Position numbers and translations under genes: made by a program. From assembly GCF_024223415.1 (NCBI RefSeq), contig NZ_CP100500.1: a stretch of 64,000 nt of DNA, one strand, 5' to 3'. Under the pieces are notes generated by a model. It had not been told where the DNA came from and did not search any database. It worked only from the letters and a program-made list of their open reading frames with translations. Positions within the stretch are counted from its first letter, which is position 1. Each line of letters begins with the position of its first letter. This stretch comes from Escherichia coli (GTDB lineage Bacteria > Pseudomonadota > Gammaproteobacteria > Enterobacterales > Enterobacteriaceae). Below are positions 49,802 through 50,184 of this stretch, piece after piece.

Positions 49802-50184
49802 TGTATCTTATATTGTGATATCGGTGCTGCTGCTGTTATTTTTTGTTGTATTTGTGACGAATGGTTAAGAATAAAACATGAGTTGGTGATTATCAGGACA
49901 GGTTGCTTGTATATGAAGATAACAAAGGCGGCATTTATTTTTGCGCTGTCAGTGTGGAGTGTTGCTGTGATATGTCTTTTATTATTTGTACTGGTTGTTC
50001 TGGGATAGCTATAGTGGAATTATTATTTTTTTAAGACTATGGTTTATATTTTTATTCGGCAATATTTCTGTAAACAATTAAATATCAGAAAGGCGTGTTG
50101 TATGCGTGAACACGCCTGAGTATGTATACAGAGATTGTTAATTTGGAGAGAATAATTACAGTTGTTATTTATTTGACGTCCTGA

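What the first reader, a model, noticed from the sequence alone, without database searches (positions are those of the whole stretch)
49900..50010. Short hydrophobic ORF (about 31 aa) in the AT-rich spacer before dinI
Hand translation gives MKITKAAFIFALSVWSVAVICLLLFVLVVLG, reminiscent of type I toxin or small membrane peptides. It is below the ORF-track cutoff and lies in a region with no other annotation.
Basis: seen in the sequence. Interest (0 to 1): 0.3.

Follow-up and report, generated by a model that had tools for sequence, protein, structure and literature searches.

The report
Orphan hydrophobic mini-ORF ending adhesin–regulator module
The 31-codon, very hydrophobic reading frame is really there, but it belongs to a mobile E. 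coli adhesin–regulator cassette rather than to dinI, shows none of the hallmarks of a type I toxin, and cannot be proven to be a gene because it has no diverged relatives anywhere.

Summary
Observation confirmed. ATG 49913 to TAG 50008 (+) encodes MKITKAAFIFALSVWSVAVICLLLFVLVVLG. It is the most hydrophobic of 454 small ATG ORFs in the window.

It is not a dinI-spacer element. It is the last feature of a roughly 1.5-kb module: the adhesin 3' half, an orphan 151-aa HTH regulator, and a 220-nt tail. The module occurs 285 times in 183 of 5426 complete E. coli genomes, in prophages and in islands. Homology ends 12 nt after the ORF's stop.

A second hydrophobic mini-ORF (49791-49868, GTG, strong SD) overlaps the regulator's stop.

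No toxin, small-protein or RNA family matches. I found no promoter of its own, no terminator, no antisense gene and no RNA-structure signal.

Database "fusion" proteins of 173, 220 and 225 aa join the regulator to these ORFs. They arise from G-run/T-run length differences in error-prone assemblies or rare derived alleles. All 183 complete genomes and 17 metagenome contigs carry the split G5/T6 state.

The module is at least 97% identical everywhere and has no distant homologues, so conservation cannot decide coding status.

Best reading (about 0.4): an unannotated single-pass membrane peptide co-transcribed with the regulator. Rivals are a vestigial membrane anchor, a fortuitous ORF, and a type I toxin (unlikely). 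Interest is low to moderate.

The parts
49913..50008 (+). ORF2, the finding: ATG, 31 codons plus TAG, MKITKAAFIFALSVWSVAVICLLLFVLVVLG. Predicted single transmembrane helix with a K2/K5 N-terminus.
   Evidence: Exact peptide predicted on more than 200 contigs in public collections. Not annotated by PGAP.
49895..49902 (+). SD-like AGGACAGG, 10 nt upstream of the ATG and 4 nt upstream of an in-frame TTG at 49907.
   Evidence: -5.6 kcal/mol, an average value and not discriminating.
49791..49868 (+). ORF1: a second hydrophobic mini-ORF (GTG, 25 codons, (M)LNNVSYIVISVLLLLFFVVFVTNG). It is in the +1 frame relative to the regulator and overlaps the regulator's stop by 11 nt.
   Evidence: T at codon position 2 in 17/26, GRAVY 2.05. 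SD -8.6 kcal/mol; confident helix when fused.
49780..49784 (+). G5 run. It is the SD for ORF1 and the slip site that, as G4, fuses the regulator to ORF1 (173 aa).
49839..49844 (+). T6 run inside ORF1. T7 together with G4 gives the 220-aa single ORF seen only in error-prone assemblies.
49346..49801 (+). Orphan 151-aa regulator with a sigma-70 region-4 type HTH (residues 87-130) and a basic C-terminal tail. It is in the same reading frame as ORF2.
47876..49285 (+). YadA-anchor trimeric autotransporter adhesin (469 aa) with a 99-nt tandem repeat at 48514-48717.
48514..50020 (+). Conserved mobile module shared between prophage and island contexts. Its right boundary is 12 nt after the ORF2 stop.
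50091..50117 (-). Hairpin AGGCGTGTT/AACACGCCT downstream of dinI on the - strand. It belongs to the dinI side and lies outside the module.

Best explanation
ORF2 is the last coding element of a mobile E. coli 'trimeric-autotransporter adhesin + orphan HTH regulator' module. It is most likely a 31-residue single-pass inner-membrane peptide, with the N-terminus (MKITK) in the cytoplasm and the rest buried in the bilayer. It would be translated from the same transcript as the regulator and from its own ATG and modest SD. ORF1, a second hydrophobic mini-ORF, is probably translationally coupled to the regulator. What is shown: the ORF, its hydrophobic outlier status and codon-phase T periodicity, its membership of the module, and the absence of type I toxin anatomy. 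What is inferred: co-transcription (no + strand promoter in 49300-50200 and no terminator found), translation, membrane insertion, and any function, such as modulating the regulator or the adhesin's envelope biogenesis.
For: The ORF and peptide are present. Only 0.15% of shuffles give a hydrophobic ORF of this length, and T is at codon position 2 in 19/32 codons. It ranks 1/454 for hydrophobicity in the window. It has an ATG with Lys at codons 2 and 5 and an upstream SD-like sequence of -5.6 kcal/mol. Homology among 183 genomes (285 copies), in at least four different flanking contexts, always includes the ORF and stops 12 nt after its stop codon. The neighbouring ORF1 has a strong SD (-8.6 kcal/mol) and a stop/start overlap typical of coupling. 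T-at-position-2 periodicity continues in ORF1's frame to its own stop, so ORF1 ends naturally and ORF2 is a separate unit. No + strand promoter was found in 49300-50200, and no + strand terminator between the regulator and ORF2.
Against: The SD is only average and 10 nt from the ATG. No homologue is less than about 94% identical in 5.8 billion clusters (word-index search) or 1.84 billion representatives (exhaustive phmmer). Hence there is no test of frame conservation. The five observed substitutions (A6V, F9L, I20M, V28I, L30M) are all nonsynonymous, and the regulator itself shows 5 nonsynonymous to 1 synonymous. One strain carries an IS3 insertion in codon 4. A chance alternative-frame ORF with GRAVY 2.05 exists elsewhere in the window. 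PGAP does not call the ORF. No small-protein family matches.
Confidence: 0.4

Rival explanations
1. Vestigial membrane anchor. ORF1 and ORF2 are the two transmembrane helices of an ancestral regulator of about 220 aa (or ORF1 alone of a 173-aa form). The ancestor was membrane-tethered and was split by indels at the G-run (49780-84) and T-run (49839-44). On this reading ORF2 is a non-functional leftover.
For: ORF2 is in the regulator's reading frame, and that frame is open from the regulator's TAA to ORF2's TAG. The regulator ends in a basic stretch (RSGFRKGRFIKGR) like a juxtamembrane segment. Removing one G and adding one T gives one 220-aa ORF with two hydrophobic helices, and such ORFs exist in GenBank (P0020, P0036). 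A G4 allele encoding a 173-aa regulator-ORF1 fusion occurs in three metagenome contigs, whose names suggest short-read assemblers, and in one genome. The ORF1-encoded tail of that 173-aa G4 fusion (the sequence modelled) is predicted as a confident helix, pLDDT 79-96.
Against: None of 285 copies in 183 complete genomes and none of 17 metagenome contigs has G4/T7. The two assemblies with long ORFs carry many other 1-nt homopolymer indels. The G4 allele sits on a common G5 haplotype with no private SNPs, so it looks derived and not ancestral. The openness of frame 0 across ORF1 follows automatically from ORF1's T-at-position-2 pattern. Only about 15 linker codons need to be open by chance (estimated p about 0.3). 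Hydrophobic periodicity continues in ORF1's frame past the T-run (VVFV), whereas the fused frame reads CCIC. No full-length homologue exists in any taxon.
Confidence: 0.22
2. Fortuitous ORF in a GT-rich, C-poor spacer, with no product or function. The composition may serve something else. For example, the - strand RNA is C-rich, G-poor and unstructured, which is rut-like for Rho, and could stop antisense read-through from the convergent downstream gene.
For: An ORF of this length is expected in 48% of shuffles. The alternative frames in the same stretch are also hydrophobic (the 20-aa ORF 49972-50034 has GRAVY 2.01). A chance ORF of GRAVY 2.05 exists inside the adhesin gene. There is no selection signal. 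An IS insertion in ORF2 is tolerated. The - strand is unstructured (z +0.55). In all four contexts seen the next gene is convergent.
Against: Composition-preserving shuffles reproduce the hydrophobicity in only 0.15% of cases. Two adjacent segments each show codon-phase T periodicity. The module boundary respects the ORF's end.
Confidence: 0.25
3. Type I toxin: a membrane-depolarising peptide whose translation is held in check by an antisense sRNA.
For: The size, the single hydrophobic helix and the location in a prophage or island fit. A weak inverted repeat could pair ORF1 sequence (49825-49842) with ORF2's first codons (49916-49933), 72% complementary. There is one 9/12 promoter-like site on the - strand at 49917-49889.
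Against: No match to any toxin family in Pfam, NCBIfam, PHROGs or PADLOC. No Rfam antitoxin RNA. No - strand terminator, and fewer promoter-like sites than in shuffles. No excess RNA structure on either strand. No promoter of its own. The peptide has no polar or charged C-terminal tail. The ORF always travels with the regulator gene rather than as a self-contained locus.
Confidence: 0.05

Closest known systems
Bacterial small single-pass membrane proteins of 50 aa or fewer (the class described for E. coli K-12 by Hemm et al. 2008, e.g. YohP, AcrZ, MgtS; recalled from my own knowledge)
   Same: Length of about 30 aa. An N-terminal Met-Lys followed by one uncharged helix. Encoded at the end of an operon or in a gap that annotation pipelines skip.
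   Different: No sequence family match. No conservation beyond near-identical copies of one mobile module. No expression evidence.
Type I toxins of Enterobacteria (Ibs/Sib, ShoB/OhsC, Ldr/Rdl, TisB/IstR, ZorO/OrzO, DinQ/AgrB, Hok/Sok)
   Same: A short hydrophobic peptide located in horizontally acquired DNA.
   Different: No antisense RNA gene, no promoter or structured leader of its own, and no family HMM hit. The ORF is tied to a regulator gene rather than being an autonomous two-gene locus.
Membrane-tethered one-component transcription regulators (ToxR/CadC/TcpP type; established knowledge)
   Same: If fused (G4, or G4/T7), the product would be a cytoplasmic DNA-binding domain followed by a basic juxtamembrane stretch and one or two transmembrane helices.
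   Different: Those regulators use an N-terminal winged-helix OmpR-type domain and carry a periplasmic sensor domain. Here the HTH is of the sigma-70 region 4 / LuxR type and there is no periplasmic domain. The fused form is not the population allele.

Membership tests
Type I toxin-antitoxin system | Small (<60 aa) hydrophobic toxin ORF with one predicted transmembrane helix | tested here: met
   31 aa, GRAVY 2.26, uncharged residues 6-31
Type I toxin-antitoxin system | Sequence match to a described toxin family (Hok/Gef, Ldr, Ibs, TisB, ShoB, DinQ, Zor and others) | tested here: not met
   No toxin family and nothing above any curated cutoff at E<=1 in Pfam (only a sub-threshold chance hit to Doppel, E 0.016) or NCBIfam; nothing in PADLOC at E<=0.1; PHROGs gives only E=0.3 to a family of unknown function
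Type I toxin-antitoxin system | Antisense or divergent sRNA gene with its own promoter and terminator that can pair with the toxin mRNA | tested here: not met
   One 9/12 promoter-like site on the - strand (shuffles give more). No - strand terminator between 49300 and 50000. No Rfam hit. The - strand fold has z +0.55. The consensus scans are crude, so a non-canonical sRNA is not excluded.
Type I toxin-antitoxin system | Autonomous toxin transcript with its own promoter and a structured 5' leader | tested here: not met
   No + strand promoter-like site in 49300-50200 (the only + strand sites, 9/12 matches, lie at 47692-48261). The + strand fold has z -1.3.
Type I toxin-antitoxin system | Growth arrest or membrane damage on overexpression, relieved by the antitoxin RNA | not testable with these tools
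   An experiment is needed.
Small membrane protein gene (sprotein) | Start codon with a ribosome-binding site at workable spacing | tested here: inconclusive
   ATG at 49913. AGGACAGG lies 10 nt upstream, -5.6 kcal/mol, equal to the median of long ORFs but matched by 20% of random sites.
Small membrane protein gene (sprotein) | Reading frame and peptide conserved in diverged relatives, with substitutions biased to synonymous sites | tested here: inconclusive
   No relative below about 94% identity exists. The frame is intact in the 27 copies read in full, except for one IS insertion, and coverage and identity in the BLAST tables suggest the same for the other complete-genome copies. The five variants seen are all nonsynonymous.
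Small membrane protein gene (sprotein) | Evidence of translation (Ribo-seq, tagging, mass spectrometry) | not testable with these tools
   A full-text search for the peptide found no paper.
Split or frameshifted gene (C-terminal membrane anchor of the HTH regulator) | The pieces are collinear, on the same strand, and joinable by 1-nt indels without meeting a stop | tested here: met
   G5 to G4 plus T6 to T7 gives a 220-aa ORF.
Split or frameshifted gene (C-terminal membrane anchor of the HTH regulator) | An intact full-length allele or orthologue exists in reliable sequence | tested here: not met
   0 of 285 copies in complete genomes. 0 of 17 metagenome contigs. The long ORFs come only from assemblies with many homopolymer indels. 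No orthologue elsewhere.

The most novel reading that the evidence does not exclude
ORF1 and ORF2 are functional membrane partners of the orphan HTH regulator of an Eib/YadA-like adhesin module. Slippage at the G5 run switches the regulator between a soluble 151-aa form and a membrane-tethered 173-aa form. This would be a compact, mobile on/off or localisation switch for a prophage-borne adhesin, with ORF2 as a separately translated membrane co-factor.
Probability: 0.06. Interest if true: 0.55.

Novelty: new member of a known kind. Interest (0 to 1): 0.25.

Why it matters
If translated, this would be one more unannotated small membrane protein. It would be carried, with an orphan regulator, next to a surface adhesin that spreads between prophages and islands in avian-pathogenic, Shiga-toxigenic and commensal E. 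coli (3.4% of complete genomes, up to 7 copies each). It could bear on how such adhesins are controlled. As it stands, the value is mainly corrective. The ORF is not linked to dinI or to the SOS response, and it does not look like a toxin-antitoxin locus. The longer 'fusion' proteins in databases are sequencing artefacts or rare slip alleles.

Tried and rejected
1. Conservation test. A word-index search of 5.8 billion clusters with the regulator and with a 41-aa version of the ORF found only near-identical E. coli (one Salmonella) copies. So did exhaustive phmmer of a 220-aa reconstruction against 1.84 billion representatives. tblastn and blastn against phages and plasmids found nothing. A conservation test is therefore impossible.

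2. The 220-aa protein P0020 at first looked like proof that ORF2 is the C-terminus of the regulator. I rejected it as population evidence. Its genome has many other homopolymer indels. P0036 is equally noisy. All complete genomes and metagenome contigs carry G5/T6.

3. The G4 allele as the ancestral state. I rejected this because it sits on a common G5 haplotype with no private SNPs.

4. ORF1 and ORF2 as duplicates of one another. Similarity is not significant at the DNA or protein level (p about 0.09).

5. Rfam search and RNA folding for an sRNA or structured leader gave nothing.

6. Defence-system (PADLOC) and PHROG family scans gave nothing for the small ORFs.

7. AlphaFold2 of the 173-aa form without an alignment gave pLDDT 43.5, useless except for the C-terminal helix, so I ran no fold search.

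8. Literature. An EibG-family preprint (doi 10.64898/2025.12.25.695649) describes the adhesin diversity but not the downstream regulator or small ORFs. The peptide string occurs in no paper.

Full report
**1. The observation**

The window carries an ATG at 49913 and a TAG stop at 50006-50008 on the + strand.

The spacer between the upstream gene's stop (49801) and dinI (50185-50433, - strand) is 67% A+T. More precisely it is T 41%, G 23% and C 10% on the + strand.

Length is not special. In 48% of dinucleotide-preserving shuffles of the spacer there is a + strand ATG ORF of at least 31 codons. Only 0.15% of shuffles contain one as hydrophobic as this (GRAVY at least 2). T occupies codon position 2 in 19 of 32 codons, which is the phase signature of hydrophobic coding.

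Among all 454 ATG ORFs of 20-70 codons in the 64-kb window this one ranks first (GRAVY 2.26; 99th percentile 1.37). The next independent one (2.05) is clearly a chance alternative-frame ORF inside the adhesin gene. About one such ORF per window can therefore arise by accident.

A purine-rich AGGACAGG lies 10 nt upstream of the ATG. Its pairing energy with the anti-SD is -5.6 kcal/mol. That equals the median of the window's 47 long ORFs, and 20% of random positions reach it.

**2. The surroundings**

The window is an E. coli lambdoid prophage end. It holds tail genes J, a tail fibre gene and DUF4376, then a 469-aa protein with a YadA membrane anchor (47876-49285). Next come a 151-aa protein with a sigma-70 region-4 type HTH (49346-49801), the spacer, and dinI and an ORF6N gene on the - strand. 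Chromosomal yciE/yciF and trpA/trpB follow.

A second hydrophobic mini-ORF is also present, which I call ORF1: 49791-49868, GTG start, 25 codons, (M)LNNVSYIVISVLLLLFFVVFVTNG. It overlaps the regulator's stop codon by 11 nt. It is preceded by GGGGG (49780-84), which gives a strong SD of -8.6 kcal/mol.

**3. The ORF belongs to the adhesin-regulator module, not to dinI**

blastn of 49780-50190 against 5426 complete E. coli genomes finds 183 genomes with about 285-290 places (290 with the 411-nt query; 285 with the 97-nt query), and up to 7 copies per genome. Only 22 genomes have the dinI side. In the others the match is query positions 1-241, which is window 49780-50020.

In those genomes the cassette sits in non-prophage islands. 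Its neighbours there are IS256, a c-type lysozyme inhibitor gene or yaiO. Pairwise comparisons put the shared block at window 48514-50020. That block covers the adhesin's repeat and anchor half, the regulator and the tail. It always ends 12 nt after ORF2's stop.

PGAP annotates nothing in the tail. Other pipelines have called the 31-aa peptide on more than 200 contigs. GenBank has a 40-aa version annotated as a hypothetical protein in strain AD30.

**4. Is it conserved?**

This cannot be tested. All copies are at least 97% identical. Four kinds of search found no diverged relative:

- The regulator and the ORF have no relative below about 94% identity among 5.8 billion protein clusters.
- An exhaustive phmmer of a 220-aa reconstruction against 1.84 billion representatives returned only fragments of the same gene.
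- Phage and plasmid collections have no match.
- Seventeen metagenome contigs are near-identical.

Variants seen in ORF2 are A6V, F9L, I20M, V28I and L30M. All are nonsynonymous and all conservative. The regulator itself shows 5 nonsynonymous changes to 1 synonymous, so the data have no power. One strain (SFE8) has an IS3 element inserted after codon 4.

**5. A lead that had to be deflated**

ORF2 is in the same reading frame as the regulator. That frame is open from the regulator's TAA to ORF2's TAG.

The protein database contains a 220-aa E. coli protein (P0020). It reads regulator(1-146)-IQ-ORF1 helix-CCICDEWLRIKHELVIIRTGCLY-ORF2. Its DNA differs from the window by G5 to G4 at 49780-84 and T6 to T7 at 49839-44. 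This suggested a split membrane-anchored regulator.

Several results weigh against that reading:

- That genome carries many other single-base homopolymer indels relative to its relatives.
- A 225-aa sibling is equally noisy.
- None of the 285 copies in complete genomes is closer than two gaps to the G4/T7 sequence.
- All 17 metagenome contigs are G5/T6.
- A G4/T6 allele (173 aa, regulator fused to ORF1 only) does occur in three metagenome contigs, whose names suggest short-read assemblers, and in one error-prone genome. It sits on a common G5 haplotype with no private SNPs, so it looks like a sporadic derived slip or an error rather than the ancestor.
- The openness of frame 0 across ORF1 follows automatically from ORF1's T-at-position-2 pattern, because codons ending in T cannot be stops.
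- The hydrophobic periodicity continues in ORF1's own frame past the T-run (VVFV-TNG-stop), whereas the fused frame reads CCIC.

The vestigial-anchor idea therefore survives only as a rival, at about 0.2.

**6. Type I toxin test**

- No Pfam, NCBIfam, PHROG or PADLOC family matches either mini-ORF.
- Rfam at E up to 10 gives nothing in 49800-50030.
- Promoter and terminator scans give no + strand promoter-like site in 49300-50200. The only + strand sites, all 9/12 matches, lie upstream at 47692-48261. There is no terminator after ORF2. On the - strand there is a single 9/12 promoter-like site (49917-49889), when shuffles give more, and no - strand terminator.
- Neither strand folds better than shuffles: z is -1.3 for + 49860-50060 and +0.55 for - 49780-50130.
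- ORF1 and ORF2 are not detectable duplicates, unlike tandem toxin loci.

Only size and hydrophobicity fit a type I toxin.

**7. Most likely mechanism**

The most likely mechanism is inferred, not shown. The regulator transcript runs on through the 220-nt tail. ORF1 is translated by coupling to the regulator's termination. ORF2 is translated from its own ATG, or from the in-frame TTG at 49907. Both insert as single helices in the inner membrane.

ORF2's two lysines at the N-terminus predict an N-in orientation. What the peptides do is unknown. Acting on the regulator or on adhesin export is a guess.

My confidence in this reading is about 0.4. The rivals are:

- a vestigial anchor (0.22);
- a fortuitous ORF in a GT-rich spacer, possibly a rut-like region for - strand read-through (0.25);
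- a type I toxin (0.05).

**8. Novelty and interest**

If real, this is a new, orphan member of a well-known kind: unannotated small membrane proteins. Nothing here would surprise a specialist. The useful outcomes are these:

- The ORF is re-assigned from 'dinI spacer' to a mobile adhesin-regulator module.
- The toxin reading has no support.
- The longer fusion proteins in public databases are homopolymer artefacts or rare slip alleles.

Interest: 0.25.

Noticed in passing
window 49791-49868 (+): A second, unannotated hydrophobic mini-ORF (GTG, 25 codons, no charged residue). It overlaps the regulator's stop by 11 nt and has a strong GGGGG SD (-8.6 kcal/mol).
   Followed up: yes
window 49780-49784 and 49839-49844: The G5 and T6 runs vary in length in a few public sequences. 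G4 gives a 173-aa regulator-TM fusion (3 metagenome contigs and 1 genome). G4+T7 gives 220/225-aa ORFs, seen only in assemblies full of homopolymer indels. All 183 complete genomes have G5/T6.
   Followed up: yes
window 49346-49801 (+): The 151-aa HTH protein is an orphan. Only a weak Sigma70_r4_2 match (E 2e-7) and a weak phrog_6585 match were found. No homologue below about 94% identity exists in 1.84 billion representative proteins. It always travels with the YadA-anchor adhesin.
   Followed up: partly
window 49309-49327: A perfect GC hairpin, CCCGGGGG-AGT-CCCCCGGG, lies between the adhesin stop and the regulator start. It is followed by TATAAT (49328-49333). Most other copies have one more G in the left arm.
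   Followed up: no
window 48514-48717: A 99-nt tandem repeat (2.1 copies) lies in the adhesin's coiled-coil stalk. Copy number differs among genomes (several extra copies in L001 and L018).
   Followed up: partly
window 51187-51194 (- strand gene 50812-51373): The ORF6N-domain gene is frameshifted in the window (T8). The closest genome L001 and metagenome contigs have T7 and an intact 186-aa protein. This is either a real pseudogene or a homopolymer error in the window's source.
   Followed up: partly
window 50705-50747 (-): A 43-nt match to the 3' end of tmRNA (Rfam RF00023, 22.5 bits, E 1e-6, below the gathering score), with no full ssrA gene. It is probably an attachment-site remnant of a prophage or island.
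   Followed up: no
window 50449-50464: CTGTGTTTGTATACAG, a CTGT-N8-ACAG LexA-box-like palindrome, lies just upstream of dinI (- strand). The SOS signal belongs to dinI, not to the small ORF.
   Followed up: no
L004 (strain SFE8), equivalent to window 49922: An IS3-family element is inserted after codon 4 of ORF2, and IS421 lies between the adhesin and the regulator. The module is being degraded in this strain.
   Followed up: partly
window 7934-8122 (-) and 8146-8253 (-): Two adjacent small ORFs (62 and 35 aa) have membrane-helix-like sequences (GRAVY about 1.25). They may be small prophage membrane proteins.
   Followed up: no
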